A stretch of DNA of 63,969 bases, filler included, from Chrysochromulina tobinii (GCA_001275005.1; 8 parts of 8 records of this genome joined end to end with filler, not necessarily neighbours in it); one strand, 5' to 3'; positions 1,152 through 62,121 are shown, counted from the first letter of the whole stretch. A program made the numbers and translations. The notes: a model not told the origin generated them from the sequence alone.

Positions 1152-1904
1152 GTGTGCCGATGGCGTGAGTGTGCCGAGTGAGTGTGGGCGCGCTAAAGTG
1201 TGCAGTATCTGGAACTGATCATGAACGCGCGGTGGTATGTGAGAGTTCTTCGAACCCGCGGCCCGATCGCATGAGTCTTTGCGAGCGTGTGTGCGGGATC
1301 CCGGCCGGATGCGGAGTGTGCGGAGTGTGAGACTGAGGCGGTGTGATACTGAGGCGATGTGATATACTGAGGCGGGGCGCGGAGACTGAGGTGGCGGCGG
1401 CCCGGCGCCGTTCTCAGTCCGGGGCTCGGGGTGCCTTCCGAACTGGGTAGTCTGCTGAGTACATGCAACGATGACGTTGGTCGACGGTGTGGAGAAGATC
1501 TTCATGGGGGTCGGGTTGTCGTGTCGTCGCGTCGTTCAATAAAATGTCGAACGTATGTGCGCCCAGCGCCGCCCGCGGTCGGTGATGGCCGTCATGTGTC
1601 GCGTTTCGGGTCGCGTTTGCCACACAGTGACTGCACAGTGATTGGCTAACTTATCTTCGGCTCAGCTATCCAGCTGCTCGGCTGGGACCATCCGCCGCTT
1701 CCGCCCCTCACCCCTTCATTGAGGGGCACACGGGACGGAAACGGGACGGTTCCAACTTCCATGGCGATCACATGGCGACAGGCCGGTATGGTTTTAATGT
1801 CAAGTTGTCAAGACATCCAACTGAACCAACGCACCAAGTCATAAAGGAGCCTCGCGGAAGAACATGTGATTACGATGAAAATCGGATGATCGACACCGCC
1901 GTGT

Positions 1905-3035
1905 TTGTTTCACATCGCACAGGTCTTGAAGCCCTACAAAGGTTCAATGACGATACCGATGCAGACAACGCAGTCCGCCCCTTGCTCAAGACTTAACGTG
2001 GCTCGGCATGGAGGATTGCTTGGACTCATGTTGACATCGAGCTCAGAATGGGTAATCCGCCCATGGCTGTACCGGCACATAGCAATCTTTGACCGTCTCG
2101 CCATCTGGGATGGAAGTAAAGCGGGATCGCCTGCGGCTGCTTGGACTGCTGCGCAGTGCAAGCTGTATGCGAACTGTGTATATGCAAACGAGGCCGATGT
2201 ATTCAACTGGCGAATCCAGGGCTGGAAGACAGACCAGACGATACGGGCTGCAGCAACGCAAGTACTGCTTTGTGGTGCTAAGTCCCAAGTGTTGGAGGGG
2301 CGATGGATCTACATTGCGCACCCGGACGAATTTTTGGTGCAGGATCTGAGGATACTCGTCTCCCACGTGGAACGTCTCAGCCCATTAGCAAATGCCATCG
2401 AATTCAAGATGCTCTACGCCCTTCCCAGCTCCGGCGAGCGCTCAGGAATTCGTGAGTTCCAAGCCGCATCGAACGGCTACCAGAGCTTTGAGCCGATCGT
2501 ATCATTGGCATCTTGCGACGCAGGATACATCTGGCACGAGGCCCGGCTCTTCCGCTGGGAGGCCGGCGTGGAATGGGGCCAATCTCGAAGCAAGACCGGC
2601 ATCATTCCCGAAAAGGGCTCAAGTAATGGATGGAAGTACTGGCCGACTGCTGCACATTTTGATCGCACAACACGACACAGTCTTGCCCCACACATCGTGC
2701 ACTTCAAGGTGCATGACTTTGCTCCCGGCGCATTTAAGGTGGAGAAATCAAAAAATAAAGGCAGGCCATGGATTTCCTTTACCAGGAGCGGTCTACACAC
2801 TGGCATGGGCACTCATAGGACTCAAAAGTTCATTATTGATTGGAATCAGTCGGCGGAGGACCAGATATTTGGGTACTATAATCGAACTGGACATCGAGCT
2901 ACACCTGTGGCAACTGAGCTGCAAGCTCGCTGCAATGCCACGGGGCTCGAGCCACGATGCAGCGTCGAATGGCAGCCACAGGCACGGTTCTCTCCTAGTT
3001 CACCGACGAAGAAAGTTGCTGGGGACACATTTTAG
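1905..3035 (+). CDS. Putative GT-A fold (GT2-like) glycosyltransferase; start uncertain
   Basis: WLYRH..FD.LAIWDGS and WIYIAHPDEF (DxD-like) motifs; 376-codon ORF, more AT-rich than its neighbours. Confidence 0.55.
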   Translation: MFHIAQVLKPYKGSMTIPMQTTQSAPCSRLNVARHGGLLGLMLTSSSEWVIRPWLYRHIAIFDRLAIWDGSKAGSPAAAWTAAQCKLYANCVYANEADVFNWRIQGWKTDQTIRAAATQVLLCGAKSQVLEGRWIYIAHPDEFLVQDLRILVSHVERLSPLANAIEFKMLYALPSSGERSGIREFQAASNGYQSFEPIVSLASCDAGYIWHEARLFRWEAGVEWGQSRSKTGIIPEKGSSNGWKYWPTAAHFDRTTRHSLAPHIVHFKVHDFAPGAFKVEKSKNKGRPWISFTRSGLHTGMGTHRTQKFIIDWNQSAEDQIFGYYNRTGHRATPVATELQARCNATGLEPRCSVEWQPQARFSPSSPTKKVAGDTF

Positions 3036-3339
3036 ACCCCGGTCACGTTCTTCAGTTTTGCTCACCGGGACGGTGTGGATGATGTTGTGCACGAAGCGCG
3101 CGCGCGCTCCCGCGTACGGCGATCGAACGTTTCGGCCCCGCCGCCAGCAGTCCACCCCCCCTCCACCCACTCACCTGTCTCCTCGTCGCCCGCCTCCCGC
3201 CCTCCGGAAACCGACGTTACAAGTGAACCGTGCACGTCACGCCATCCTTCGTGCTCGCCTTCGTGCTTCGATCCAGAAGCCCCCGGGCATATCATAACAT
3301 AAGCGTATTTTTTGTACGAGTAGACAATATGTTTCGAGA

Positions 3340-10943: not shown

Positions 10944-11043
10944 NNNNNNNNNNNNNNNNNNNNNNNNNNNNNNNNNNNNNNNNNNNNTTAATTAATTAAN
11001 NNNNNNNNNNNNNNNNNNNNNNNNNNNNNNNNNNNNNNNNNNN
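10944..11043. other. Artificial contig-joining spacer (N run + TTAATTAATTAA + N run); repeated at 22524-22623, 30532-30631, 38716-38815, 50871-50970, 59635-59734 and 62022-62121
   Basis: Seven 100-nt spacers of the same design, each with a six-frame stop core. Confidence 0.98.
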
Positions 11044-12502
11044 GTGATGGGGGGGGTGGCGAAGGAGGCCTTGTGCAGTCGAGAATGCCCTGGGAGAGCC
11101 AGTGGGCCTTGAGCTGCTCGTCGTTGAGGCTCGTCGGCACTCTCAGCGCCAAGCGAATCGAGGACATCAGCTCGTCCGTGAGCTCGTCGCCGGCGTTCAG
11201 CGTCACTTGCGGTACAGCAACATCGTCAATGGGAGTGAGGCCACCGCCACTGTGCGTTTGGGGAGTGGTGGTCGCGGTCGGACCCCGTCTGCCGATCGTG
11301 AGGTTGGCGTACTGAATTGGGGGCATCGGAGACGGCGGTGGCGGTGAAGGTGGGGGGCTCGGCGGTGGCGACGGTGGCGGAGGCGATGGAGGTGGCGACG
11401 GCGGAGGAGGTGAAGGCGGCGGTGATGGCGGCGGCGGTGAGGGTGGGGGCGATGGCGGCGGCGGCGAGGGCGGTGGCGAGGGTGGCGGTGGCGAGGGTGG
11501 AGGCGAGGGTGGAGGCGGCGACGGCGGTGGCGACGGCGGAGGAGGCGTTGGGGGGGGCGAAGGCGGTGGAGGCGATGGAGGGGGCGAAGGCGGGGGCGGC
11601 GATGGAGGGGGTGATGGAGGGGGTGGTGAGGGAGGTGGCGACGGCGGTGGTGGCGAAGGGGGCGGCGGGGAGGGCGAGACGAAGGGCCCGTGCACGTACA
11701 CTTCGATGAGGTTGAGCACGCGATTCTCACCCGGCAGGACAATGGTGACATACCACCCTGGCAGGCTGCCGCAGTCAAAGGCGAAGGGGCCGCACCGGTC
11801 GATTGCTGGGTCGCGCAGGTTTGGGAGTCCAGTATCGTATTCAGTACGCTGGTGCGGCAGATAGGGATCCACGTGGTCGCACAACCTGGGATCCAAGCTG
11901 ATATTCATATTTGGGGCCCACCACGTATCTTGACCAGCCGCGCATTGCGCGGATGTCTCCGAGCGCCAATCCCCAGGCGACTGCCCAATCCAGATCTGAA
12001 AGGGTGACAGACGATCGTGAATCCACCAGTCTGTGTGCGGGCGATTGTAGACTTCAACCCACTGGACCAACGAGGGGGGGTTGAAATCGATGCCGTCAAT
12101 GGTGGGCTCGCCGCCTGGGATCTGGATGCTGATCCACGGATTGGTCGTGCCACACAGCGCATCAGGCTCGAGGTCACAAGGAACTTCAAGCGAGTGGCAC
12201 ATGGAGGTCTCGTTGAGACTATCGTCGATGCAATTCTCGGCTTTCCATGGTGGTTGCACGGAGCTCATGTTGACGCTCATCCGATGTAGACGCGTAGCCA
12301 AGGGTAAAGGGGCGCTGAAGGACTCGACATAGGTCACCCCAGGGGTCGGCGACGGTGGTGGCGGTGGCGGTCGAAAAGGAGGTGGTGGCGATGGCGATGG
12401 GGGTGGCGGCGACGGGGGCGGTGGCGGCGAACGGATAAATATCTGTGCGTCGGTGATGCTCAACGTCGTGAGGAAGAAGAGCACCCCGTGCATACGGGTC
12501 AT
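11044..12502 (-). CDS. Secreted proline-rich (SPPPP) glycoprotein with an F-type lectin/galactose-binding-like domain, 3'-partial
   Basis: Signal peptide; AENCID..CHS..NPWISI..VEVYNR...RL..F.IWIG...YVTIVLPG..RVLNL.EV.V; extensin-like SPPPP arrays. Confidence 0.78.
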
Positions 12503-12659: not shown

Positions 12660-15600
12660 TCGAGGTGACAGTCAGTCAGTCAGTGCGGCAGAGTCCGAAA
12701 CAGACAGACCACCCAATCTGTCACAGTCGACTGCAAAGTTTCAAGTACAAGTACAGTAATCAAGCTCACCGCAGGTGTGGTTGTGTTCAGTGTGGGTGTG
12801 AACGAGGGCTCCCCGCAGGCGAGCCGGCCAACCGGCCCGGCCGAGCATGCATGCATTGTGTTCCACATCCATATCGTATCCATATGCGGAAGGGGCGAGC
12901 ACCGGTACGTCGCCCCTTGTCCGCTTCGCAAGAGCGACGAGTCACCTCGTTCGCCATCGCGTGTTGTTGTTGTCGTGTCTAGCCGATGGACTTCGTCGCC
13001 GTTCCGGCTGGGACAGCGCCCGTGGCCGCTTTGGCCCTCCGCGGCGCTGATCCCCCACTTAGCTTCGCGACGGCAGATTCATTCAACACGACGCTGGGCG
13101 TCGCCCTCTGTGCTGTGCCTGGCGCAGCACCTGGGCGGATGGAGGCAGCGTACTCCAACGTGGCGGCCGAGCTGGTAGGCGCGCTGTTCACGAACGACGC
13201 GGCCGTGCTCGACTCCGCCACGATCCTCAGCGTCATCGATCCGACCAAGCTGCGCGCCGTCTGGCTGCGGCTTGTGTTTGACGGCCTGGATGATGCTGCC
13301 TCCCTTTCGGGCTCGCGCTTCAGATATGAGCGCGACAACGTTCTGGCGGGGCTGGACTATTCCGCGCTGGGGATGCCTGTGGGCTACCTGGTCACGGCAG
13401 CCGATCTCTTTCTGACGGAGGTGTCCGCCGGCGCGGTGGGCGGAGGTCCCACGCTGTGGGTCCGCTCCACTACGATCCGGGCGTTCGCATCGCCTGTGCG
13501 AGGCCATCCGGGGCTCTATAGCCTGGCTCCCCTTGCCGACCTGTATCGCTTCGCTCCGGGCATCTTTCACACGGCCGAGCGCGACCTGGTCGACTCTCCA
13601 TTTCGGCTCGTCCTGGAGGAGTCCCGGCGTCGTGCGCAGGACGCTCACATGCCGTATGCCGCTCTCGCCTCCGCGAGCCCGCTGAATACGGCGCGTGCGG
13701 CGGCGCAGGCCTTCATCGCGACCGCGCCCCCTGGGCGCAACTGGGAGCTGTATGGTCCAAATGGCACCCCTGGTGACCTCACTCGGCGGGCTCAGGACTG
13801 GTCGGATCGTTGCAGCCTTGCTGGGCCGATCGGAGCAGGCGGCGGCGGGCACGCGTTCCTCGAGGTCGTGTGCCGTCGCTTCGACGAGCTCGCGCTGGCG
13901 CTTCCATCGCTGCACACGGTGCTTGAGGGCCTGCTGTCCGTGCAGGCCATCACTGCCGAGCTGGCCTCGCTCGCGGCTGGCTGCTTCAAGCCGGCGCGCG
14001 GGCTACCGGTCAACATCCAGATGCTGCTGGCGATCGAGGCGGCTTGCCTCGAGCTCCTCTCGCCCATGGAAGAGCACAACCTCCTCACGGCGCGGCAGCG
14101 CGTCGAGTGGATCTGCACCATGCAGCAAGACACGCACGCGCGTGGCGGCGGCGGCGGCGGCGGCGGTGCGTCGGCAGACTCCTCGGAGTCCGTCGACCAC
14201 AGCATCCTTCAGAGGGTGAAGGCGGCCCTTTCGACGCCGGTGGCCCGCATCTACTTCGCCGAGCTCCGGGCTCTCCTAGACGCGGTGCCGCCCAACTCTC
14301 TCACCATCTCCAAGAAGCTCACCAGCAGTCCGCTCGCCTTCGTTCGGCGTATGGGCACCGGCGTTGCCCCGCCCTCTTCGTGCACGTCCTCGCTCTGGCG
14401 CGACGAATTCGACCGGGCGTCGTTGCACGTGCTCAAGGACAAGTGGCGCTACAATCTTAGCATGCGTCTTGCCGCTGACAAGCAGGGCAAGGTCATGCAG
14501 ACGGCTGAGAAATATCGCATCTCGTCGATCGCGGCCGCGGCCATCGCCGAGTTCCGGTTCGACGAAATTGACTGGTTTGGATTGACCTACGAGGTACGCG
14601 GGGTGCAGGCCGACACGGATTTCATGCTCATGCCGATCGAGCTGCACTACTCCGAGACGGATCACTTTGTGAGCCTGGGCATGGTCGTGCAACGCGTCGA
14701 GTCGGCGCTGTCCCTCGACTCGCTGGCGACCAACTCGCTCACATCGGCCGTCGACCGTGCGAAGACATTCTTCCAGGACCACTGCACACCCGAGCTCACC
14801 CGTGCGGACGACATCGAGACCATCCAGACCTTCTTTAAGGAGATGTGGTCGTCGGTCCGTGAGGAGTGGTTCCCAGTCATCTCGGGGCGCGCGCCGCTGC
14901 AGGCATTTCCCGATGTGGTCGTCCCGCGCAGCTCATCGTGCTGGGGCGCTCTGGACGAGGCGGAGAAGGATGGCGTGGCGACCAAGGCGCTGCTTCGGAA
15001 CAAGGCACTGGCGCACAAGCTGGGGCTTGACACGACGCGCGTCTCGTACCCGGCGGGCATGGCTCGCCCGGGCGCGGCGGGCTCGTCGCGCGCCGGGCGC
15101 TCGCGCTCGCCGTCGCCTTCTGGTGGGCGTGCTAGCCCAAGCTCCCGCCGTGACGACGGCGGCGGCATCTCGCGCCGGCCGCCGACGCCGCCGGGGGAAG
15201 GCGGCCCTCCCATGGCGGTTTTCTGGAGGAACCAGACTGACTTCGCCTTCTCCTCGTCGGGCACGACGGTGGTCCCTCTGCAGGCGTCGATCGCCACCGG
15301 CGTCAGCCAGACCAAGTTCTGCTGGCCGGTGGTGGCATCGCTCAAGGAGACCGCTGCCCTTCGCCGCAGGTACTGCCAGACGCCCGGCCACGCTCGCTGC
15401 ATCTCGGGTGCCGCGCACGAGCAGTCGGACCGCATGCGGGTCTACTTCACCAAGCTCTTCAGCGGGAAGAGGAAGCAGCAGGATTTTGAGCGCGGTCGGG
15501 ACCTGGACGGACCCGACCGTGACTATACGTCCACGGCTAAGGCGGCGAAGCTCGCCAGTGACCTCGAGGCCGACATGCTGGCGACGCCCGCGGGGTGGCC

Positions 15601-18600
15601 GCCCGGCACGGGTCCGCCGGCGCTCAAGCTGGGCGGGCTGGGTGAGCGGATGGCTTTTGGCCATCCCGCGATAGTGCCGGGCTACCGCTCTGTCGAGCCT
15701 GGTGAGGAGGTAGAGGAGGAGGAGGTCGACTGGTCGGGCATGGCGGAGGCGTGGGCTCACGACGACGCGGCGGCGGCGTCGGGCAGCGAGCGCAGCGCGG
15801 CGGCGTCCGCGGCGGCGGCCAAAGGCGGTGGCACGCCTCGGGGGGGTGGAAAGGGTCGTGGCAAAGGTCGCGGCGCCAAGGGGGGAGGCAAGGCGAAGGG
15901 CGGCGGCGCCAAGGGTGGCGAGAAGGGTGGCGCCAAGGGGGGCGGCGGCGCCAAGGGTGGCGAGAAGGGTGGCGCCAAGGGGGGCGGCGGCGCCAAGGGT
16001 GGCGAGAAGGGTGGCGCGGCGGCTGGTGAGAAGGGCGGCAAGGGTGCCGCTGGGGGAGGCGGAGCCAAGGGGCGAGGCAGAGGCGGAGGCAAGGGCGGAG
16101 GCAAGGGCGGCGGGCGCGGGCGCGGCCGCGGCGGAGCGGTGGTCTCCTTTGCCTCGGGGGCGGCTGGCGCTGCGTGGTCGGAGGTGGCCACGGCGGCAGC
16201 CAGGGCAGCCAGGGCGACGGCCAGGGCGGCAGTACCCGTTCTGCTCGCGCCACTGGCGATGTCGTCCAAGATTATCCTCTACATGCTCGCGATCTCGGCC
16301 ACGTCCGCGCCCGCCCTGCTGCTGCCGGCTGGCGGCGGCGTCTGGGGGCGTGAGGCGCCTCGCACGTTCCTCGGTGCGGCGGCGATGAAGGGGGCTTCAT
16401 CCGCGGCGTCGCGCTGGGCGCCAGCTCTTCTCGAGGACCAGCCGCGGGGGCTCACGGCGCATTACGTGGCGGCGCAGCGGCTCGCTTCAGGCGACTCGCT
16501 CTGCTGCACTAACTGGGTTGCAGTGTGCCTGGTGGCGCCAGGGCTCGTGGGCGCGCCCGGCACCGTCTGGCGAGATCTCAGCGAGCTCGAAGGGACGCCT
16601 GAGCACGCGATCGCGGCGGTCGCCGCCTATCGTGGGCACAGCCTCTTCTACGATCTTCCTGCTCTCGCGAGCCTGGAACCGATCTTCACGGGCGCCGAGC
16701 GCGACGTGGTCGACAGGGCCCTCGGCGTGGGTGGTGGCTTCGAGGTGGGCAAGCGTGCCGCCATGCCACCACTGCCAGGGCCGTCGCAAGGCTTTGAGAG
16801 AGAGACGCGCAGCTTTGACGAGATGTGGGCGGTTCACCGCTCCGAGGTGGCGGAGCTGAGGGGCGTCTTCTCAGAGCCGGGGCCCGCGCTCACGGCGCTC
16901 GAGGCGGGTCGCCTCGCGTGCCCCCTCGCGGCGGGCTACGGCACCACAGGATCCGAGTGCGTGAGCGAGCTTGCGGCGTCCTTCGACAAAATCTGGGCGG
17001 CCGACTGCCCGGCGTGGCGCGAGCGGATCGCCGAGGCGGACCCGGCTCAGATTCCCCTGTCCCTCAGAGAGACGGGTGCGCTGGCGTCGTTCAAGGACGA
17101 GGCGCTGGCCCTCACGCCCTTCGCATCGAGGTGCCGGCCGCCGTGGACGGCCAAGCGGCCTCCACCCGCGCCGCAGCTGCCCGGCCCGCCGGGCCCAAGA
17201 GACTTCGAGGGGTTCTACCCGCCAGGGCACTTTCGCGCAAAGGCGGACCCATGGCTGTTCGCCCAGCGAGCGTATCTGCTTGACGCGCTCGAGCACGGCG
17301 AGGCATGCACCGCCAAGCCGCCTGAGGTGCTCATCTTCTCGGATCACGAGCGGCTGCCCGAGTACCGTGGGCGGCTGTACGAGTACGACGCCGCACACGG
17401 CGAGTACACGCTCACGGACACGGCGGCGCCGGCGACCACGCACCTCAATCTGCCCTTCGCGGTCCACTTCTCGGAGGGCTACCCGGATCAGGAGATCTTT
17501 AGCACCCTCGAGTTTGGGGTGGACTTCGACGCGGACAACTTGGAGATGCAGGTGGTGCTGCCCCGGCACTTGCAGTCGCTGGCCGGCGGTCTTGCCAAGA
17601 TCCAGACCGACATCGCCATGAGGGCTGGCCGCGGATGGTACGAGCTCTTCGACCGCATGCCGCGCAACCCGTGGAGGCCTCAGCAGGTGGGAACTCGGCC
17701 GAAGCCTAACGGCAAGCGCCGGGTGATCATCAACGCATCATTCCCTCATGGCGAGCTAGCCGACGACTACGGCGTCCGTGTCCACGCCCTCAACGCGCTG
17801 TCGAAGCGCAGCTACGACTCCGTCAGAGGATCTGACGGCAAGCGCATGTGCCGGCTGCTCGACAAGGTCCGGGTCACGGCGCGCTCAGCGCCACCACAGG
17901 CTGATGATGGGGCGGTCAAGCCGCTGGCAGAGGCCGCTCAGTTCTCGGCGCGACTCGGCAAGGTGCGCGTCGAGCGAGCGGACGCGTCGGCAACGCATCC
18001 CTGGAGCGTGCAGGGTGGGCTGGGGTCGATACTCGGTACTCCCTTTCTGGCCCGTGGGGCCGACCAGCAGGAGGCGGCTTGCGACGCCTACGATCTCCTG
18101 CATGCCAACCCGAACCGCTCGGCGTTCACCGTCGCGGCCGAGTTCGGGCTCAAGTGCAGCGCGTCGCAGGCCCGAGTGTCTGCACGGGCGCGTGCATCAT
18201 ACGAGTCGGTGCTGGCCGCCGGCGTCGCACGCGGGCGCAGCCTTCAGCTTGTTGATCGCGGCCGTCCTGGTCGGAGCCACCTCGACGCGGTGGCCGTGCG
18301 GGTCGTCGCCAAGGCGCGCCTGCTCAATGACGCTCAGCGTGTTGCACAGGCGGCCGTTGGCACGGCGTCAAAACTCGTGCTGCACCTGTTTGCGAGCTCG
18401 GGCGAGCTGGCGGACGAGCTTAAGCTCCACGGCGTCGGGTGCACCACCGCCGGCATCCACCGTAATGCGGATCTCTGCGAGGACGCGACGTACCAGCGTC
18501 TCATGGCTCAGGCTTGCGCGGGGGTGTACGTTATGGTGGTGGCTGCCGTCTGGTCTATGTCGGGCAGCGACGAAGTAACGCGGCGCGTCGTGGCGGTCAT

Positions 18601-21600
18601 CACGGCGGCCTGCCGGCGTGGGGCGTCATACGTCCTTGAGAGCCCAGCCGAACAGGTGGGCGTCGTCCCTGACCTCGAGCTCGAGCTCCGGCGCCAGACA
18701 GACTCGAGAAAGGCATGCTTTGCCCGGTGCCGCCTTGGGTCAGAGAGCCAGCAGGCAACCACGATGATTTACTCGGCGGGGCTTGCTCGGCTTGACGCTC
18801 TGGCAGGCCTGCACTGCCGGTGCCATGGTCTCCACGCTGCACGAGCGGCCTCGAGAAATTCACGACCATACGAGCTCACCGCGCTCATCGCGGCCGCGGC
18901 GGCAGACTGGGTACACCGTGCGCAGGCGGGGGCGACGTGGACCGTAGGGCTCGCACTCCGCCCGTGCGAGCGCGTGCTCGCCCTGAGCGACGACGGCGCC
19001 AAGCGCCCGCCAGAGCTCAAATGGTACATATCGGAATACATGAGCGACGACGCCGTGCTGAAGCACGTCTCCATCATCGTAGGGACCTTCGTGGTGACGC
19101 TCAGCGACGACTTCAATGACTGGTTCTACCAACTTAAGCTCATGGCAGGCTGTTACTGGATGGTTGGCTACATCTTGCTCGAGCTCGAGAAGCTGGCCTC
19201 CGAAGCGCCCGAGCTGCGCTACATCGTCGAAAAGGTCCTCGGCCAAGGCACGGTCCCGGGCTCCAATTGGGGTCAGCGGCTCTGCGAGTTAGTCCTTCAC
19301 ATGTGGGACACGGTCTTCGAGGTCCTCGATGGCTCGCACACGGCGGCGCAGCGGCTCGACTCGCCCGAGCTCGACGGCTGGTTCGCCCGGCGCGAGGCCG
19401 CGGGACTGGCTGGCCGCCTCCACGCCAGAGGCGGCTACACTGATGACACCAAATTCCGGTTCGTTGGGCCAGAGCGCGCGCGACGCGGGGCCAAGGCTTG
19501 GTGTTTCGTCACCAAGGGCTTCCGGACCATCATGGCTGACGCGTCCAAACGTATGCTCGGAGTACACGACGTCTCCCTCGGCACGTGTTTCAACTACTCG
19601 CTAGGAATCGCGTTCATCGGCGAGGATAAGCTGCAGCGCGCGCTCGCGCAGCTCCACAGCCTTGCGCGGGGCGAGCTCGCGGCGAGCATCTACAGGTCGC
19701 TCGTTGGGCTGTTGCTCCACCTGGCCTTCCTCGCGGGCATGCGCCCCTCTGCGACGCACGGCATGTTCACGCCCATGATGGAAGGAGGAGCGCTAGCGCA
19801 AGGGCCAGACACGCTCGTCGCCGGACGGCACCTGACGCCGGCCATTGTGGCGAGAGCGGGCGAGTGGACGGAGCGCTTGTCGCGCTCATCAGGCGCGCCC
19901 TTCACGAGCGCGGTCGCATCGATGGCGCGCGTCGCGCAGGCAGGGCCTGGAGCGGCGCGCCACTTCTGGCGGAGCGACGCGTGTAAAGAGGGCACCACTC
20001 ACCCCGGGATCGCGGGGATCTGCACGGGACGTGGAAGCCCACGCGTGTGGGTACGCCGCCTGACGGGCGACGAGCTGCTGCTACCGGTGCCGGTGACGGA
20101 GTTTGCTGGCTTCTTTGGCAACTGCAGCCTCTGGGGCGCCTCCGTCCCAGCTGACGAGCTCGTTGTGTCCGAGGTTGACGCGCTCGTGCCAGCGTTCGTG
20201 CTCACTCGAGAAGCGTCGGCGTCACCGCTGATGCAGCACGTGCTCGCAGCCGTCAATGCGCTCGAGTGCATGGCGCGCCTTCGGGAGCACATGACGATCG
20301 GCCACATCAGCAGCGAGGTGAACGTCACGGCTGACCTTCCCAGCCGAGGCCGCATCTCCGAGCTCCTGCTGATCGCTGAGCATGCGGGGGCGAACCTCAC
20401 CATCGAGCCGCACCCGGGCGCGCTCGACTTGCTGCTCAGCGAGCTCGTGCAGCTCGAGCTCGACCGGCGCCCAGCCACCGCTCTGGGCTCTCACAATATA
20501 TGTATGGATGGACGACCTCTGGCCCACGTGGAGAGGGTCCCCGCGTGCGCCGACGTGACGATCTCTCTCTCGGCGCCTGGGCCGCAGCGCCACGTTGCGT
20601 CGGCCAACCGCCCTTTGCCGTACGCACGTCCCAGGGTGGAGCGCCACGTTCCCGCTGCGGCGGTTGCCGCCGTCGGTCACCACCACGCTGCGGTGGCGAT
20701 CGACCTGCCGGAGCGCACCGTGACGACGACGCAGCTTGAGGCACCGCACGACTTCACAGTGCAGCGCCGTGCGGCCGTAGTCGAGCGTGAGTCCGATGTG
20801 CTCGATCTCATGCTGCCCGAGCGTACTGCGCTAAAGCGGCTGCTCGGCGACACAACCTGCTACGCGCTCAAGCCGGCGGCCGCCTCACGGCTTGCTCAGA
20901 TGTGCGGTGCGGTCCACGACGCCACATGGGACAACGCCGGCTCGAAGGCCAAGCTCGACAGCAACATGAAGCTCTGGCGCGGCTACTGCGACGGCCTGAA
21001 CACGCCCTGCTGGCGGCCATGCGAGGCGGGTCTCACGATGCAGGAGAAGGAGCGAGAGGCGATTCTCGCAGCCAACTTCCTGCCGTACGCCCTCACGGTC
21101 ATGCGCGGGCGGCGAGGCTGCGCGCAGGCCAAACCCGCGAGCGCGTACAAGGCATACCTCGGCGTGCGCAAGGCGCACAGCAAGCGCACCGTCGAGCTGC
21201 CCTCGACTAAGCTCGTCTGGCAAATGTGCAAAAGGCTGAATGCGAAGCACCTGAACGAGTTTGGCGCCCAGTCGCTCATCGTGAGGCGCAAGCAGCCCTT
21301 CACCAAGGAGATCCTCCACGAGCTCCTGATCTCGACCGACAAGGGCGCACTCGACCTGACGGTGCCCGCCGTAGGAGCGGCCTTCCGCGCCTTTGTCGCG
21401 ACATTGCGCCAGACGGGCATGCGCAAGAGCGAGCTCGCGCTCAGCGCCGGCGCTACCTTCACGCCCGCGCTGGCGACTCGCTCGCACTTGCAGTGGTGCC
21501 TTCGAGGTGTCATCTATGCTGACCCGCCGGCGGATCTCCTCCGGCACCCCCGAAATGGTGACTATGCGATCCTCATCCCGCCGCCCAGCAAGGCGGACCC

Positions 21601-22523
21601 GTACGGCGAAGTGTGGGGTGCGCTTCCAATCTACCTCCACCACTCGCCAACGGATCCGGACTCCGCCTTTAACCATCTCGCCACCCTCGAGCTCACCGTG
21701 CCCGCCGTGGGGCAGCAGCGCCGAGTCGTGCCGCTAATCTCGGCAGACAACAAGCGGCCGCTCGCCGCCGGCCAGCTCGACAGCATGCTTCAGCTCATCC
21801 TTCGCCGCCTGATTGGCAAGGTGAACGCCAGCAAGTACAGCTGGCACTCGGCACGGATCTATCTAGCGTGCTCGCTCCTGGCGGCTGGCGCCTCCCACGC
21901 CCAAATTCAGGCCCTGTGCCGCTGGCAGACGGAAGACTCGCTCCGGGTCTATGCCCGCCTCAACCCGAGCAGCTACAAGGAGCTGCTCTCGCGCGCTGCC
22001 AGCGCGCAGGTTGACTCCGTCTCCGTGGGGTCCCTTCCCCCGCTCTCGAGCGAGCTCGCCATCCGGCAGCTCCTCGGTCTCTCACTGGTCGACGCCCTTG
22101 CGGCGGGAGCCTAAGCGGTACACCCGCGCGTGCGAGCCCTCTGCACTGCAAGGCCTCTCGTCGCGGGCTCCGATAACGACGAACCACTCGTTTGCCGCGT
22201 TCTCAGAATCCGCCGCGTCACCGCGTTCTCAGGATCCGCCGTGAGCATCAACGAGTGCAGTCGGATTTTCCGAAGCTACCCTCTACTGGGTCTGCTACGA
22301 TACCAAAGCCCCTTCCTTAACCGGGTTGTAATCATACCGGGCCTCGGACGAGAAACTCGTCCGGGATACAGGACACTGGCGAGAGCTCCGCCGCGTTACC
22401 GCGTTCTCAGGACCTCGCTGAGTGACTCAGGGACTGCCTCAGGGCAATACCCCCGATGCGCCGCATCGCGGCGGCGACAACAAGCGGTGCCCTCCTAAGG
22501 GACAAAGGGCACCGCTCCTGATT
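12660..22523 (+). mobile_element. DIRS-superfamily (YR) retrotransposon; ORF intact; termini unresolved and contig ends in the 3' region
   Basis: RT + RNase H + YR domain order; intronless 9.1-kb ORF; hairpin- and repeat-rich flanks; 5' boundary is an estimate. Confidence 0.82.
12986..22114 (+). CDS. 3042-aa polyprotein of a tyrosine-recombinase retrotransposon: gag-like region, RT, RNase H, tyrosine recombinase
   Basis: RT: PKPNGKRRVI (~17700), SDDFNDWFYQL (19103), LGQG..PGSNWGQR, YTDD (19436-19447). RNase H: SDACKEG (~19976)...E...D...NVTADLPSRG (~20321). YR: GMRKSE (~21422), SKAD, HSAR (21845), RW...Y (21920-21952). Confidence 0.92.
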   Translation: MDFVAVPAGTAPVAALALRGADPPLSFATADSFNTTLGVALCAVPGAAPGRMEAAYSNVAAELVGALFTNDAAVLDSATILSVIDPTKLRAVWLRLVFDGLDDAASLSGSRFRYERDNVLAGLDYSALGMPVGYLVTAADLFLTEVSAGAVGGGPTLWVRSTTIRAFASPVRGHPGLYSLAPLADLYRFAPGIFHTAERDLVDSPFRLVLEESRRRAQDAHMPYAALASASPLNTARAAAQAFIATAPPGRNWELYGPNGTPGDLTRRAQDWSDRCSLAGPIGAGGGGHAFLEVVCRRFDELALALPSLHTVLEGLLSVQAITAELASLAAGCFKPARGLPVNIQMLLAIEAACLELLSPMEEHNLLTARQRVEWICTMQQDTHARGGGGGGGGASADSSESVDHSILQRVKAALSTPVARIYFAELRALLDAVPPNSLTISKKLTSSPLAFVRRMGTGVAPPSSCTSSLWRDEFDRASLHVLKDKWRYNLSMRLAADKQGKVMQTAEKYRISSIAAAAIAEFRFDEIDWFGLTYEVRGVQADTDFMLMPIELHYSETDHFVSLGMVVQRVESALSLDSLATNSLTSAVDRAKTFFQDHCTPELTRADDIETIQTFFKEMWSSVREEWFPVISGRAPLQAFPDVVVPRSSSCWGALDEAEKDGVATKALLRNKALAHKLGLDTTRVSYPAGMARPGAAGSSRAGRSRSPSPSGGRASPSSRRDDGGGISRRPPTPPGEGGPPMAVFWRNQTDFAFSSSGTTVVPLQASIATGVSQTKFCWPVVASLKETAALRRRYCQTPGHARCISGAAHEQSDRMRVYFTKLFSGKRKQQDFERGRDLDGPDRDYTSTAKAAKLASDLEADMLATPAGWPPGTGPPALKLGGLGERMAFGHPAIVPGYRSVEPGEEVEEEEVDWSGMAEAWAHDDAAAASGSERSAAASAAAAKGGGTPRGGGKGRGKGRGAKGGGKAKGGGAKGGEKGGAKGGGGAKGGEKGGAKGGGGAKGGEKGGAAAGEKGGKGAAGGGGAKGRGRGGGKGGGKGGGRGRGRGGAVVSFASGAAGAAWSEVATAAARAARATARAAVPVLLAPLAMSSKIILYMLAISATSAPALLLPAGGGVWGREAPRTFLGAAAMKGASSAASRWAPALLEDQPRGLTAHYVAAQRLASGDSLCCTNWVAVCLVAPGLVGAPGTVWRDLSELEGTPEHAIAAVAAYRGHSLFYDLPALASLEPIFTGAERDVVDRALGVGGGFEVGKRAAMPPLPGPSQGFERETRSFDEMWAVHRSEVAELRGVFSEPGPALTALEAGRLACPLAAGYGTTGSECVSELAASFDKIWAADCPAWRERIAEADPAQIPLSLRETGALASFKDEALALTPFASRCRPPWTAKRPPPAPQLPGPPGPRDFEGFYPPGHFRAKADPWLFAQRAYLLDALEHGEACTAKPPEVLIFSDHERLPEYRGRLYEYDAAHGEYTLTDTAAPATTHLNLPFAVHFSEGYPDQEIFSTLEFGVDFDADNLEMQVVLPRHLQSLAGGLAKIQTDIAMRAGRGWYELFDRMPRNPWRPQQVGTRPKPNGKRRVIINASFPHGELADDYGVRVHALNALSKRSYDSVRGSDGKRMCRLLDKVRVTARSAPPQADDGAVKPLAEAAQFSARLGKVRVERADASATHPWSVQGGLGSILGTPFLARGADQQEAACDAYDLLHANPNRSAFTVAAEFGLKCSASQARVSARARASYESVLAAGVARGRSLQLVDRGRPGRSHLDAVAVRVVAKARLLNDAQRVAQAAVGTASKLVLHLFASSGELADELKLHGVGCTTAGIHRNADLCEDATYQRLMAQACAGVYVMVVAAVWSMSGSDEVTRRVVAVITAACRRGASYVLESPAEQVGVVPDLELELRRQTDSRKACFARCRLGSESQQATTMIYSAGLARLDALAGLHCRCHGLHAARAASRNSRPYELTALIAAAAADWVHRAQAGATWTVGLALRPCERVLALSDDGAKRPPELKWYISEYMSDDAVLKHVSIIVGTFVVTLSDDFNDWFYQLKLMAGCYWMVGYILLELEKLASEAPELRYIVEKVLGQGTVPGSNWGQRLCELVLHMWDTVFEVLDGSHTAAQRLDSPELDGWFARREAAGLAGRLHARGGYTDDTKFRFVGPERARRGAKAWCFVTKGFRTIMADASKRMLGVHDVSLGTCFNYSLGIAFIGEDKLQRALAQLHSLARGELAASIYRSLVGLLLHLAFLAGMRPSATHGMFTPMMEGGALAQGPDTLVAGRHLTPAIVARAGEWTERLSRSSGAPFTSAVASMARVAQAGPGAARHFWRSDACKEGTTHPGIAGICTGRGSPRVWVRRLTGDELLLPVPVTEFAGFFGNCSLWGASVPADELVVSEVDALVPAFVLTREASASPLMQHVLAAVNALECMARLREHMTIGHISSEVNVTADLPSRGRISELLLIAEHAGANLTIEPHPGALDLLLSELVQLELDRRPATALGSHNICMDGRPLAHVERVPACADVTISLSAPGPQRHVASANRPLPYARPRVERHVPAAAVAAVGHHHAAVAIDLPERTVTTTQLEAPHDFTVQRRAAVVERESDVLDLMLPERTALKRLLGDTTCYALKPAAASRLAQMCGAVHDATWDNAGSKAKLDSNMKLWRGYCDGLNTPCWRPCEAGLTMQEKEREAILAANFLPYALTVMRGRRGCAQAKPASAYKAYLGVRKAHSKRTVELPSTKLVWQMCKRLNAKHLNEFGAQSLIVRRKQPFTKEILHELLISTDKGALDLTVPAVGAAFRAFVATLRQTGMRKSELALSAGATFTPALATRSHLQWCLRGVIYADPPADLLRHPRNGDYAILIPPPSKADPYGEVWGALPIYLHHSPTDPDSAFNHLATLELTVPAVGQQRRVVPLISADNKRPLAAGQLDSMLQLILRRLIGKVNASKYSWHSARIYLACSLLAAGASHAQIQALCRWQTEDSLRVYARLNPSSYKELLSRAASAQVDSVSVGSLPPLSSELAIRQLLGLSLVDALAAGA

Positions 22524-22623
22524 NNNNNNNNNNNNNNNNNNNNNNNNNNNNNNNNNNNNNNNNNNNNTTAATTAATTAANNNNNNNNNNNNNNNNNNNNN
22601 NNNNNNNNNNNNNNNNNNNNNNN

Positions 22624-30472: not shown

Positions 30473-30631
30473 CTGATGAGGGAGACCATCAAGAGGTCAT
30501 CAGAGGTAATCTGCGGCAAACACAGAGGCGANNNNNNNNNNNNNNNNNNNNNNNNNNNNNNNNNNNNNNNNNNNNTTAATTAATTAANNNNNNNNNNNNN
30601 NNNNNNNNNNNNNNNNNNNNNNNNNNNNNNN

Positions 30632-38280: not shown

Positions 38281-38815
38281 GATGTGCTTTGCGAGCGCGC
38301 GAGCGCATAAAGTCGTGCTTGTTTTTCGCCTTTTCCCACTGTGTTCAGTTCAGTTCAGTTCAGTTCAGTATGCTTCTGTTAGGTTGTCTGTTAACTGAAC
38401 TCCCACTGCAGTGGACTGAGCAGTGGACCTTCAAAAGGCGAGCTTGGCGTTCAAGACGAGCACAACTTTGGCGCGAGGTTAATGATATCTGCTTTTTCGC
38501 CCCTGAAAAAAACAAGTACAAAAACAGACGACGCTCATACAGCAATACTGACCCGCCCGGCGGGCGTCGCGGGCGTCGCGGACGCGTCGTCGTGGCTCCC
38601 GGCGGGGCGACCGGCCGTCCCTAAGCCCTAAGCCGTCCCGCGACGACGACCGTGCGCCGCCGTTGGGCGTTGGCGTACGTTGGCGCGGCCCGGGCGGCCG
38701 CGGCGCGCGCGCGCCNNNNNNNNNNNNNNNNNNNNNNNNNNNNNNNNNNNNNNNNNNNNTTAATTAATTAANNNNNNNNNNNNNNNNNNNNNNNNNNNNN
38801 NNNNNNNNNNNNNNN

Positions 38816-50520: not shown

Positions 50521-50970
50521 TTCATAGAAGTGCATCATGATCTCGCCGCGGGCCGAGCTCACTGGCGAATGTCCACACGCCCTTCAGCGCATTTATGTAA
50601 TGAAGTTCATTTTGGACCACATAACGGGACTGTGAAACTACTTCTCGCGCTTCTATCACCGAGTGGGTGTGCATGACCCCTAGAAAAGTTTTTCTTTTGT
50701 CTCACCGGACCGTACCTAACGAGGCGGGCGACCATCGGGCGGCTAGCGAACTCCCCCTTGGCAGAGGGCGGTTCGCTTGGCACCCCCCTACGAGAAGCCC
50801 CCACAAGTATAACGGCCTATACGGTCCGGGGTTCATCAGTGTGATGACACCCGGTGACCCCTTACCCCCCNNNNNNNNNNNNNNNNNNNNNNNNNNNNNN
50901 NNNNNNNNNNNNNNTTAATTAATTAANNNNNNNNNNNNNNNNNNNNNNNNNNNNNNNNNNNNNNNNNNNN

Positions 50971-59634: not shown

Positions 59635-59824
59635 NNNNNNNNNNNNNNNNNNNNNNNNNNNNNNNNNNNNNNNNNNNNTTAATTAATTAANNNNNNNNNN
59701 NNNNNNNNNNNNNNNNNNNNNNNNNNNNNNNNNNCTTACGGAAGTAAGGAAGCATGGATGCTCACGGGAGAGGACGTTAGGGTTAGGGGTCAAAAGAGGA
59801 GAATGAGAGAAGAAATGACCCTGA

Positions 59825-62021: not shown

Positions 62022-62121
62022 NNNNNNNNNNNNNNNNNNNNNNNNNNNNNNNNNNNNNNNNNNNNTTAATTAATTAANNNNNNNNNNNNNNNNNNNNNNN
62101 NNNNNNNNNNNNNNNNNNNNN

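What the first reader, a model, noticed from the sequence alone, without database searches (positions are those of the whole stretch)
17820..19005. RT domain of the DIRS element split by a ~400-aa DUF4326-like + dead C5-methyltransferase-like insert
Seen: the early RT motifs (PKPNGKRRVIINAS...LNALS, ~17700-17810) lie ~1.2 kb in frame before motif A (SDDFNDWFYQL, 19103); normally they are a few dozen residues apart. Insert part 1 (~17957-18304: GSILGTPF...EAACDAY...GRSLQLVDRGRPGRSHLDAV) follows the DUF4326 pattern (S..GNPF...L.CxCxPxxCHxD) with the cysteines lost. Part 2 (~18371-18892) follows C5-MTase motif order: VLHLFASSG (motif I, FxGxG), YVLESP (VI, ENP/V), CRLGSESQQAT (VIII-like) and RPYELTALIA (X-like). 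The catalytic PC position reads AAVWS. Established: DNMT-bearing retrotransposons, including DIRS, are known from dinoflagellates. Inference: a captured module embedded inside the RT fingers, catalytically dead but kept in frame, perhaps as a nucleic-acid-binding or anti-silencing domain.
Basis: partly seen in the sequence, partly recalled or inferred. Interest (0 to 1): 0.85.

Follow-up and report, generated by a model that had tools for sequence, protein, structure and literature searches.

The report
Retrotransposon RT split by dead methyltransferase module
An algal DIRS-type retrotransposon carries, inside its reverse transcriptase, a 394-residue two-domain insert (a DUF4326-like domain and a cytosine-methyltransferase fold) that has lost its catalytic motifs yet is still under purifying selection, so it likely serves as a non-catalytic part of the enzyme.

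Summary
Window 12983-22114 (+) is one 3043-aa ORF of a DIRS-type element with an A-coding-B-A-B repeat layout and a tyrosine recombinase.

**The insert.** RT finger motifs (aa 1573-1612) and palm motif A (aa 2041) lie 434 residues apart. In 54 of 70 usable RT relatives that distance is 100 aa or less. The extra 394 aa (nt 17819-19000) is therefore an insertion.

**Part 1 (aa 1667-1779).** It is homologous to Pfam-validated DUF4326 domains at the same site in relatives (E 3e-24). The three signature cysteines are replaced.

**Part 2 (aa 1795-1983).** It folds as a C5-cytosine methyltransferase catalytic domain (M.HhaI Z 11.7; all 50 listed rows are C5-MTases). Intact relatives keep FSGxxG, PC, ENP and a GxPxQK block. 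The window copy has FA--SSG, WS followed by a ~44-aa deletion, and ESP.

**Selection.** dN/dS is 0.29 for the insert (0.10 for the DUF-like part, 0.36 for the MTase-like part) against 0.11 for the RT.

**Transcripts.** RNA-library contigs cover parts of the insert, and no splice joint was seen.

**Verdict.** This is a new variant of the known DNMT-bearing DIRS elements. It differs by being nested in the RT, by carrying DUF4326, and by having lost its catalytic motifs. The module's function is inferred, not tested.

The parts
12760..12984 (+). Repeat A1 of the split direct repeats (A-coding-B-A-B). B1, A2 and B2 lie beyond the end of this contig segment.
   Evidence: on L002, a 100 % identical copy with window = L002 + 9896. 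A is at 2864-3088 and 12914-13138 (99 %). B is at 12828-12913 and 13151-13236 (100 %).
12983..22114 (+). Single 3043-aa ORF of the element: N-terminal part, RT with insert, RNase H-like part and tyrosine recombinase.
   Evidence: Full-length relatives P0004 (3118 aa), P0007 (3175 aa) and L012 (3048 aa).
17480..17818 (+). RT finger part (aa 1500-1612) with motifs 1-2: PKPNGKRRVIINAS ... LNALSKRSYD.
   Evidence: Homologous to the segment that directly precedes the palm in 54 of 70 relatives.
17819..19000 (+). The insert (aa 1613-2006, 394 aa) between RT motif 2 and the pre-motif-A block.
   Evidence: AF2 model of aa 1612-2012: mean pLDDT 75.7, pTM 0.61.
17981..18319 (+). DUF4326-like domain (aa 1667-1779). 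The signature VCHCAPRRCHLD of relatives reads VDRGRPGRSHLD here.
   Evidence: HMM of Pfam-validated relatives hits at E 3.1e-24. Pfam itself gives no hit on the window. In the model, the 10-residue blocks that cover this domain have mean pLDDT 79-96. dN/dS for aa 1703-1779 is 0.10.
18365..18931 (+). C5-cytosine-methyltransferase-fold domain (aa 1795-1983) without catalytic motifs: LHLFA--SSG, VVAAVWS followed by a ~44-aa deletion, and YVLESP.
   Evidence: VIA-align: M.HhaI Z 11.7, rmsd 3.3, 160 residues aligned, model 184-374. Foldseek top hits are DNMT2, DNMT1, DNMT3B and M.HhaI. Alignments. dN/dS 0.36.
18812..18835 (+). Cys/His cluster HCRCHGLH between the motif VIII-like and X-like blocks, kept in the window copy.
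   Evidence: Read from the alignment: most rows with an intact module show CxC...H here. Position. A role in metal binding is inference.
19001..19963 (+). RT palm and thumb (aa 2007-2327): KRPPELKW, motif A SDDFNDWFYQL, motif B-like GQGTVPGSNWGQRL, motif C GGYTDDT.
   Evidence: 417 library proteins match aa 1540-2400 at E of 1e-3 or less, and most of the distant ones match from about aa 2004 onward.
19964..20350 (+). RNase H-like part (aa 2328-2456): FWRSDACKEG ... NVTADLPSRG.
   Evidence: A profile of 24 RT relatives matches the Ty3 Gag-Pol RNase H region at E 0.0096. Motif positions. The assignment is weak.
21788..21967 (+). Tyrosine recombinase catalytic region (aa 2936-2995).
   Evidence: Pfam Phage_integrase E 0.022, 15 bits, below the cut-off of 27.1. 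Relative P0022 scores 29.9 bits, above the cut-off.

Best explanation
The window holds a DIRS-type retrotransposon whose reverse transcriptase is interrupted, between finger motif 2 and palm motif A, by a 394-aa module made of a DUF4326-like domain and a C5-cytosine-methyltransferase fold. Both parts have lost their signature catalytic residues, and the module is likely kept as a non-catalytic structural or nucleic-acid-binding part of the RT.

**Shown:**
- the insertion and its boundaries;
- the homology of both parts to intact versions at the same site in relatives;
- the methyltransferase fold;
- the loss of the glycine loop, of the PC cysteine with its loop, and of the three DUF4326 cysteines;
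- purifying selection on the insert;
- a clade of RTs that shares the insert.

**Inferred:**
- In ancestors and intact relatives the module would modify the template or the cDNA next to the RT. That means C5 methylation, as proposed in print for SymbioDIRS-Dnmt3, and ribose-phosphate processing by DUF4326, as proposed in print for viral DUF4326.
- In this lineage catalysis was lost. The module stayed because it must fold for the split RT to assemble, and it may still hold nucleic acid or a partner.
For: **Insertion.** The LN-to-motif-A distance is 434 aa here and 100 aa or less in 54 of 70 usable relatives.

**DUF4326.** Pfam PF14216 scores above its cut-off at the same site in P0007 (26.7 bits), L008 (26.4), L009 (36.8) and P0009 (40.4). 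An HMM of these domains hits window aa 1667-1779 at E 3.1e-24.

**Methyltransferase.**
- Intact relatives carry LHLF[SG]GxxG, AG[IV]PCxTxSxAR, [IV]ENP and FG[AS]xxQKxTT in C5-MTase order.
- The window model gives M.HhaI Z 11.7 and DNMT3A Z 11.2, and all 50 listed rows are C5-MTases.
- In an unbiased search of 48,161 chains with the intact L009 module, the top 17 are all C5-MTases (Z 11.7-9.3), ahead of generic Rossmann folds at Z 9.2 or less.
- P0072 has a near-threshold Pfam DNA_methylase hit (21.6 bits against a cut-off of 22) that a local DNMT HMM confirms at E 2.9e-43. It lies in the same RT site.

**Loss of catalysis.** Seen in the alignments.

**Constraint.** NG86 dN/dS with 1000 bootstraps:

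| Region | dN/dS | 95 % range |
|---|---|---|
| Whole insert | 0.29 | 0.21-0.38 |
| DUF-like part | 0.10 | 0.04-0.18 |
| MTase-like part | 0.36 | 0.26-0.52 |
| RT | 0.11 | 0.08-0.14 |

dS is similar everywhere (0.9-1.05).

**Fold.** AF2 gives a folded two-domain model, pLDDT 75.7.

**Recent activity.** The A and B repeats are 99-100 % identical. Intact ORFs of 1686-3118 aa exist at 87-94 % identity.

**Transcripts.** RNA-library contigs cover 17589-17939, 18200-18377 and 18869-19044, with no joints.

**One origin.** 12 of the 13 insert-bearing RTs in the tree form one clade, SH-aLRT 98.
Against: - No assay and no structure of the whole RT was made, so where the module sits relative to the template is not known.
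- Pfam DNA_methylase does not hit the window or its intact close relatives.
- A profile-profile comparison of the intact module with true DNMT domains is weak: hhalign probability 23 %, E 8.7e-4, 71 columns.
- PDB sequence searches found nothing.
- The MTase-like part evolves about three times faster than the RT, has lost segments, and could be on its way out.
- dS is near saturation.
- The DNA partners used for dN/dS are rearranged, probably dead copies of a sister subfamily, so the omega values are rough.
- The frame must stay open anyway, because the RT palm, RNase H and recombinase lie downstream.
- The catalytic residues of DUF4326 are not known from experiment, so 'dead' is an inference for that part.
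Confidence: 0.6

Rival explanations
1. The module is a functionless remnant in slow decay. It is kept in frame only because the RT palm, RNase H and recombinase downstream must be translated, and it is tolerated because the site accepts insertions.
For: Catalytic motifs are lost and two internal deletions are present. The MTase-like part has dN/dS 0.36 against 0.11 for the RT. Insert lengths at this site vary from 214 to 592 aa among relatives.
Against: dN/dS of the insert is well below 1 (0.29, bootstrap 0.21-0.38). The DUF-like half is as constrained as the RT (0.10). AF2 gives a confident fold. The insert has not been deleted in any of the 13 insert-bearing rows of the tree.
Confidence: 0.25
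2. The dead methyltransferase fold works like DNMT3L: a non-catalytic paralogue that binds and steers an active methyltransferase (from the host, or from sister elements with intact modules) or a chromatin factor towards or away from new copies.
For: The fold is kept without catalysis. DNMT3A and DNMT3B are among the best structural matches. Sister subfamilies occur in assemblies that appear to be of the same mixed culture. The DNMT3L precedent is recalled, not taken from a call.
Against: No interaction was tested. The interface residues were not examined. Being embedded inside the RT makes free pairing less obvious.
Confidence: 0.08
3. The module is still an enzyme that uses non-canonical residues.
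For: The E of ENP is kept (ESP), as are H and D of the DUF4326 signature (SHLD). The DUF-like part is strongly constrained.
Against: The PC cysteine and about 44 residues of the catalytic loop are absent. The SAM-binding glycine loop is cut from FSGxxG to FA. All three DUF4326 cysteines are replaced.
Confidence: 0.04
4. The segment is not part of the mature protein. Either it is spliced out, or the upstream 'finger' motifs are a chance resemblance and the module simply lies N-terminal to the RT.
For: None found. RNA evidence is limited to short contigs.
Against: The finger segment is homologous to the one that directly adjoins the palm in 54 of 70 relatives. No joints were seen in 4 RNA libraries, and one contig crosses 17589-17939. 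The codon-level constraint on the insert shows that it is translated.
Confidence: 0.03

Closest known systems
SymbioDIRS-Dnmt3 elements of Symbiodinium (de Mendoza et al. 2018, PMC5890265; read: passages and section 6)
   Same: Both are DIRS-type elements with A-coding-B-A-B repeats, a divergent RT that Pfam misses, and a C5-methyltransferase domain inside the Pol polyprotein. 16 of the distant RT relatives found here carry a true DNMT upstream of the RT, an arrangement like the one that paper describes.
   Different: Here the methyltransferase fold sits inside the RT domain, between motif 2 and motif A, and is joined to a DUF4326 domain. It is not recognised by Pfam DNA_methylase and has no long target-recognition part. 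In this copy it lacks the catalytic motifs. The recombinase is in the same ORF, whereas that paper describes a separate ORF. The likely host is haptophyte-like; a term search of that paper found no mention of haptophytes.
RT2a insertion of non-LTR and group II intron RTs (Lentzsch et al. 2021, PMC8363836; read: one passage)
   Same: Both are extra sequence between conserved blocks of the fingers and palm. In that paper these insertions (RT2a and RT3a) add contacts to the RNA template. That RT2a lies between RT2 and RT3 (motif A), the same place as here, is recalled, not read.
   Different: RT2a is short (recalled) and not an independent enzyme domain. Here about 400 aa of two globular domains are inserted. 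The RT lineage also differs: DIRS/LTR-like, not non-LTR.
DUF4326 (PF14216) of phages and giant viruses (Iyer et al. 2022, PMC9503650; read: one passage)
   Same: The relatives' domains at this site pass the Pfam cut-off. That paper places DUF4326 in the rhodanese-phosphatase superfamily and proposes that it processes terminal phosphates on ribose in ADP-ribose products. It often occurs with NADAR, and NADAR is present in distant RT relatives here (P0035, P0129).
   Different: The domain sits in a retrotransposon and is nested inside an RT. The window copy fails Pfam and has lost the three cysteines.
DNMT3L (catalytically inactive DNMT3 paralogue; recalled, no call)
   Same: A C5-methyltransferase fold is retained without catalytic motifs.
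   Different: DNMT3L is a free-standing host protein that partners with DNMT3A/B. Here the fold is embedded in a retrotransposon RT, and no partner is known.

Membership tests
DIRS-order (tyrosine-recombinase) retrotransposons | Split direct repeats A-coding-B-A-B (or inverted repeats with an internal complementary region) | tested here: met
   on L002, a 100 % identical copy. A is at 2864-3088 and 12914-13138 (99 %). B is at 12828-12913 and 13151-13236 (100 %). Only A1 lies inside the window's contig segment.
DIRS-order (tyrosine-recombinase) retrotransposons | Tyrosine recombinase instead of a DDE integrase | tested here: inconclusive
   Pfam Phage_integrase gives 15 bits and E 0.022 on the window, below the cut-off of 27.1. 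The same region scores 14-18 bits in close relatives. Distant relative P0022 scores 29.9 bits, above the cut-off.
DIRS-order (tyrosine-recombinase) retrotransposons | Reverse transcriptase followed by RNase H | tested here: inconclusive
   Motifs A, B-like and C are present. No Pfam RVT hit. A profile of 24 relatives matches the Ty3 Gag-Pol RNase H region at E 0.0096, with sub-threshold alignments of motifs A and C. No structure of the RT part was predicted.
DUF4326 (PF14216) | Match to the Pfam model above its cut-off | tested here: not met
   No Pfam hit on window aa 1540-2106 even at E 10. Met in relatives at the homologous site: P0007 26.7, L008 26.4, L009 36.8 and P0009 40.4 bits, against a cut-off of 25.
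DUF4326 (PF14216) | Homology to validated members | tested here: met
   An HMM of five Pfam-validated domains, built without the window, hits aa 1667-1779 at E 3.1e-24.
DUF4326 (PF14216) | Conserved CxCxPxxCHxD signature | tested here: not met
   The window reads DRGRPGRSHLD where relatives read CHCAPRRCHLD. Only H and D remain.
C5 cytosine methyltransferases (PF00145) | Match to the Pfam model | tested here: not met
   No hit on the window or on its intact close relatives. hhalign of the intact module against a true DNMT profile gives probability 23 % and E 8.7e-4 over motifs I-IV.
C5 cytosine methyltransferases (PF00145) | Catalytic-domain fold | tested here: met
   Window model: M.HhaI Z 11.7, rmsd 3.3, 160 residues; DNMT3A Z 11.2; all 50 listed rows are C5-MTases. 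Foldseek best hit is DNMT2 at E 7.2e-4. Intact L009 module: the top 17 of 48,161 chains are C5-MTases.
C5 cytosine methyltransferases (PF00145) | Motif I FxGxG (SAM binding) | tested here: not met
   The window has LHLFA--SSG, a gap of 4-5 residues against LHLFSGPAG of P0007.
C5 cytosine methyltransferases (PF00145) | Motif IV Pro-Cys with the catalytic cysteine | tested here: not met
   The window has VVAAVWS where relatives have VVAGIPC, and the following ~44 residues are deleted.
C5 cytosine methyltransferases (PF00145) | Motif VI ENV/ENP | tested here: not met
   The window has LESP. Relatives have VENP, IENP or LEHP.
SymbioDIRS-Dnmt3 | The DNMT belongs to the Dnmt3 clade and lies beside, not inside, the RT | tested here: not met
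   The module lies inside the RT. A local DNMT HMM from the upstream-type DNMTs does not hit the window family. The clade of the module was not resolved.

The most novel reading that the evidence does not exclude
One clade of DIRS-type retrotransposons in haptophyte-like algae has turned the finger-palm junction of its RT into a docking site for whole enzyme domains. The domains are a DUF4326 ribose-phosphate-processing domain and a methyltransferase without a target-recognition domain. They would act on the template or cDNA as it is made, which would be a co-synthetic modification machine.

The site was used at least twice independently: P0072 carries a different DNMT there. After the first DUF4326 lost its cysteines, a sister lineage nested a fresh DUF4326 inside the dead methyltransferase. 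The window's lineage converted the module into a non-catalytic RT subdomain that is as constrained as the RT itself in its DUF-like half.
Probability: 0.3. Interest if true: 0.8.

Novelty: new variant of a known kind. Interest (0 to 1): 0.62.

Why it matters
DNMT-carrying retrotransposons are known, but a methyltransferase fold nested inside the RT domain itself, paired with DUF4326, did not turn up in my literature searches.

- DUF4326: 9 papers, none listed as being about retrotransposons.
- DIRS with DNMT.
- Haptophyte with DIRS.
- Domain insertion in RT fingers.

If the module acts at the RT, it would place a DNA-modifying enzyme at the point where cDNA is made. That is a direct way for an element to mark or protect its new copy.

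The decay series gives a natural experiment on how an embedded enzyme becomes a structural subdomain. It runs from intact relatives, through an intermediate form (P0006), to the window copy.

The link to DUF4326 and NADAR hints that ADP-ribose-based defence and counter-defence reach eukaryotic retroelements.

Tried and rejected
**Searches that found nothing or little**
- Pfam on the whole ORF and on aa 1540-2106: only a weak recombinase hit, nothing for the insert.
- PDB sequence searches with the region and with a profile of 8 family proteins: nothing relevant.
- hhalign of the intact module against a true DNMT profile: weak, probability 23 %. Methyltransferase membership therefore rests on fold and motifs, not on a sequence profile.
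- A local DNMT HMM did not reach the window family.
- The search of earlier findings near the locus: nothing.

**Steps that could not be done**
- Own-genome search: no genome is held for this window.
- The search for related loci did not return the DNA of the intact close copies P0002-P0004. dN/dS therefore had to use rearranged copies of a sister subfamily.
The whole RT with and without the insert was not folded.

**Limits of the results**
- RNA: only short Logan contigs from 4 metatranscriptome libraries could be laid. Parts of the insert have no cover (17940-18167, 18624-18851), which proves nothing. No contig bridges 19045-19122. DNA carry-over in these libraries cannot be excluded.
- The careful tree did not finish in 300 s. 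The quick tree (SH-aLRT only) is reported.
- The wide structural search rows all span the methyltransferase part of the L009 model, so the fold of the DUF4326 part was barely tested.
- Supplements of PMC5890265, which may show domain orders of SymbioDIRS-Dnmt3 in detail, were not read.

Full report
**What the window is.** The 63,969-base window is a chain of eight contigs joined by N44-TTAATTAATTAA-N44 linkers. The finding lies on segment 11044-22523. That segment holds one uninterrupted frame, 12983-22114 (+), of 3043 aa (P0001), in DNA of about 65 % G+C. tblastn finds only this one copy in the window. No whole genome is held for the window.

**The observation.**
- Finger motifs: PKPNGKRRVIINAS at aa 1573 and LNALS at aa 1603.
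- RT motif A: SDDFNDWFYQL at aa 2041.
- RT motif C: GGYTDD at aa 2150.

Pfam sees only a weak Phage_integrase match near the C-terminus (15 bits, E 0.022) and nothing in aa 1540-2106. PDB sequence searches give nothing.

**Relatives.** A word-indexed search with aa 1540-2400 found seven proteins.
- P0002, P0003 and P0004 are 94-87 % identical. P0004 is 3118 aa long.
- P0005 is 77 % identical and is named Chrysochromulina tobinii Ctob_015819.
- P0006 is 55 %, P0007 is 41 % (3175 aa) and P0008 is 35 % identical.

An exhaustive HMMER search of 1.84 billion representatives found 417 proteins at E of 1e-3 or less, 242 at 1e-10 or less and 33 at 1e-30 or less. A metagenome scan gave 12 loci. L001 and L002 are 100 % identical copies on longer contigs. 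L007, L008, L009 and L012 are 51-38 % relatives.

**It is a DIRS-type element.** On L002 (window = L002 + 9896) the repeats are A 2864-3088, B 12828-12913, A 12914-13138 (99 %) and B 13151-13236 (100 %). This is A-coding-B-A-B, the layout that de Mendoza et al. 2018 call typical of DIRS (PMC5890265, figure legend read). The element is about 10.4 kb. Only A1 (window 12760-12984) lies in the window's contig. The near-identical repeats and several intact ORFs suggest recent activity (inference).

**The RT is split by an insertion.** I ran phmmer with the finger part (aa 1500-1625), the insert (aa 1626-1999) and the palm part (aa 2000-2400) against the fetched proteins plus four locus translations. 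70 proteins gave usable hits to both fingers and palm. The distance from the LN of motif 2 to the D of motif A falls as follows:

| Distance | Proteins (of 70) |
|---|---|
| 60 aa or less | 25 |
| 61-100 aa | 29 |
| 109 aa | 1 |
| more than 200 aa | 15 |

The window has 434. Printed segments show the same flanks everywhere..D..G..V.xLN.. and ..(W/L)PKE.K...DD..DFFnQL. In the window the flanks are LNALSKRSYD (to aa 1612) and KRPPELKW (from aa 2007). The insert is therefore aa 1613-2006 = nt 17819-19000. The finger segment is part of the RT, so the rival reading 'module upstream of the RT' fails.

In a quick ML tree of fingers plus palm (61 rows), 12 of 13 insert-bearing RTs form one clade (SH-aLRT 98). 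P0072 lies elsewhere among RTs without an insert (quick tree only, the careful search did not finish).

**Part 1 is a DUF4326 derivative.** Pfam PF14216 passes its cut-off (25 bits) at the homologous place in P0007 (26.7), L008 (26.4), L009 (36.8) and P0009 (40.4). An HMM of five such domains, built without the window, hits window aa 1667-1779 at E 3.1e-24. Where relatives read VCHCAPRRCHLD, the window reads VDRGRPGRSHLD. All three cysteines are gone, and H and D stay.

Iyer et al. 2022 (PMC9503650, one passage read) place DUF4326 in the rhodanese-phosphatase superfamily. They propose that it processes terminal phosphates on ribose of ADP-ribose products. No experiment defines its catalytic residues, so 'dead' is an inference.

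**Part 2 is a C5-methyltransferase fold.** Intact relatives (P0007, P0009, L008, L009, P0008, P0017, P0020) carry four blocks in the order of C5-MTase motifs I, IV, VI and VIII:
- LHLF[SG]GxxG
- AG[IV]PCxTxSxAR
- [IV]ENP (EHP in P0008)
- FG[AS]xxQKxTT

An HMM of these, built without the window, hits window aa 1857-1982 at E 1.9e-14.

The AF2 model of window aa 1612-2012 has mean pLDDT 75.7 and pTM 0.61. It is low only at residues 1-42, 181-183 and 373-401. The L009 module model has pLDDT 81.6 and pTM 0.72.
- Foldseek against the PDB puts C5-MTases on top for both models. For the window model the best hit is DNMT2 9hgm_B at E 7.2e-4, and 1 hit reaches E of 1e-3 or less. For L009, 19 hits reach E of 1e-3 or less, all DNMT1, DNMT2 or ZMET2.
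- VIA-align on the window model gives M.HhaI 1svu_B at Z 11.7, rmsd 3.3 and 160 residues, with model 184-374 against chain 10-327. DNMT3A 9prw_D gives Z 11.2. All 50 listed rows are C5-MTases.
- The Foldseek-independent search of 48,161 chains with the L009 model ranks 17 C5-MTases first (Z 11.7-9.3). Generic Rossmann dehydrogenases follow at Z 9.2 or less. The margin is modest, so the fold evidence is good but not overwhelming. It gains weight from the motif order.

Against membership: Pfam DNA_methylase hits neither the window nor these close relatives. hhalign against a profile of true DNMT domains is weak (probability 23 %, E 8.7e-4, 71 columns), although it aligns motif I with motif I and PC with PC.

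**Decay in the window copy**:
- Motif I is cut to LHLFA--SSG.
- VVAGIPC reads VVAAVWS (PC to WS).
- The ~44 residues after it are deleted.
- ENP reads ESP.
- A further stretch after it is missing.

P0006 is intermediate: VAC at the PC place, the loop kept, and LILSP. A Cys/His cluster (HCRCHGLH, aa 1944-1951) is kept.

**Other uses of the site.**

| Protein | What lies between fingers and palm |
|---|---|
| P0072 | Near-threshold Pfam DNA_methylase hit at 826-1153 (21.6 bits, cut-off 22), confirmed by a local DNMT HMM at E 2.9e-43; fingers at 585-688, palm from 1215 |
| P0030 | Only a weak DUF4326 hit, 19.3 bits |
| P0008, L012, P0017 | The methyltransferase-like part without DUF4326 |
| P0005 and L004-type copies | A second, intact DUF4326 (Pfam E 8.8e-11) nested at the ENP position of the dead fold |

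Sixteen distant RT relatives carry a true DNMT upstream of the RT. That arrangement is like the one described for SymbioDIRS-Dnmt3. P0035 and P0129 also carry NADAR, and P0129 carries an MBD.

**Selection.** The DNA partners were L003, L004, L005 and L011. These are copies of the P0005-like sister subfamily, and they carry an inversion. NG86 values with 1000 codon bootstraps:

| Region | Codons | dN/dS | 95 % range |
|---|---|---|---|
| Insert, aa 1703-2012 | 303 | 0.29 | 0.21-0.38 |
| DUF-like, aa 1703-1779 | 77 | 0.10 | 0.04-0.18 |
| MTase-like, aa 1795-1983 | 182 | 0.36 | 0.26-0.52 |
| RT, aa 1500-1611 and 2015-2450 | 548 | 0.11 | 0.08-0.14 |

The RT partition started at aa 2015, while the insert ends at aa 2006. 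A few codons are therefore assigned loosely. dS is 0.90-1.05 in all parts, which argues against a chimera but is close to saturation. Segment-wise values agree. So the insert is translated and constrained. The DUF-like half is constrained as strongly as the RT, and the MTase-like half about three times less.

**RNA.** Twelve DNA runs of a mixed-culture metagenome hold the stretch fully. Four metatranscriptome runs hold small shares. Their contigs cover the following:
- 17589-17939, which crosses from the finger motifs into the insert (19 differences);
- 18200-18377;
- 18869-19044 (2 differences);
- 18883-19027 (0 differences).

No joints were found. These are contigs from RNA libraries, which may hold DNA. 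This is weak support for an unspliced transcript and no proof.

**How it most likely works.** The anatomy above is shown. The rest is inferred.

In intact relatives a methyltransferase and a DUF4326 enzyme sit at the finger-palm junction. In non-LTR and group II intron RTs, extra sequence between conserved blocks of the fingers and palm (RT2a and RT3a) adds template contacts (PMC8363836, one passage read). That RT2a lies between RT2 and motif A, at this same place, is recalled. The module would therefore act on the template or the nascent cDNA. De Mendoza et al. propose cDNA methylation for SymbioDIRS-Dnmt3.

In the window's lineage catalysis was lost, but the module must still fold for the two RT halves to meet. 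It may also keep binding nucleic acid or a partner. I put 0.6 on 'non-catalytic but functional subdomain', 0.25 on 'tolerated remnant', and small odds on a DNMT3L-like partner role, on residual enzymology, and on removal by splicing.

**Novelty.** DNMT-bearing DIRS elements are in print (PMC5890265; also noted in PMC12344493, passages read). NADAR in retrotransposons is in print (PMC12477816, passages read). A 2026 preprint on adenine methyltransferases in retrotransposons does not mention haptophytes, fingers or 'inserted' (term search).

My searches found no paper on DUF4326 in retrotransposons (9 papers, listing only, plus one passage), and none on a domain inserted in RT fingers of a retrotransposon with a methyltransferase. 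One search listed nine papers with haptophyte, DIRS and retrotransposon, and no title or abstract start in the listing concerns DNMT-bearing DIRS elements. The library lacks most subscription journals, and I did not read supplements. I rate this a new variant of a known kind.

Noticed in passing
window 10944-11043, 22524-22623, 30532-30631, 38716-38815, 50871-50970, 59635-59734, 62022-62121: The window is eight contigs joined by N44-TTAATTAATTAA-N44 linkers, so neighbours across a linker are not genomic neighbours.
   Followed up: yes
L003 2563-3108, L004 2114-2659, L010 515-1060, L011 2353-2898: In a sister subfamily, a segment lies on the opposite strand in contigs of four assemblies. It runs from inside the nested second DUF4326 to just after RT motif A. 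L005 and L006 show another inverted arrangement. This could be a real inversion in a dead copy or a repeatable assembly error.
   Followed up: partly
P0005 aa 647-762; L004 about 1900-2190 (+) and 2660-2970 (-): A second, intact DUF4326 (Pfam E 8.8e-11) is nested at the ENP position of the dead methyltransferase fold. That is a domain inside a domain inside the RT.
   Followed up: partly
P0072 aa 690-1249: A Pfam-type C5 DNA methylase (826-1153) sits in the same RT site in an RT that the quick tree places outside the insert-bearing clade. This suggests a second, independent insertion.
   Followed up: partly
P0035, P0129 (distant RT relatives): NADAR plus DNA_methylase (P0035) and NADAR plus a methyl-CpG-binding domain (P0129) occur in the same polyproteins as the RT. 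These are ADP-ribose-related and methylation-related domains together in one element.
   Followed up: no
L002 13189-18213 (+), just after the element's B2 repeat: Another open-ended ORF of 1675 aa with only a weak Chromo hit (E 0.13). It may be a second element next door.
   Followed up: no
window 11318-11674 and L002 858-1811; window 15872-16017: G-rich tandem repeats of 9-15 nt lie upstream of the element. Gly/Lys-rich repeats (GGAKGGEKGG) lie inside the ORF's N-terminal part.
   Followed up: no
window 18812-18835 (aa 1944-1951): A CxC...H cluster (HCRCHGLH) between the motif VIII-like and X-like blocks is kept in the window copy although the catalytic motifs are lost. It may be a metal site replacing a target-recognition domain.
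   Followed up: no
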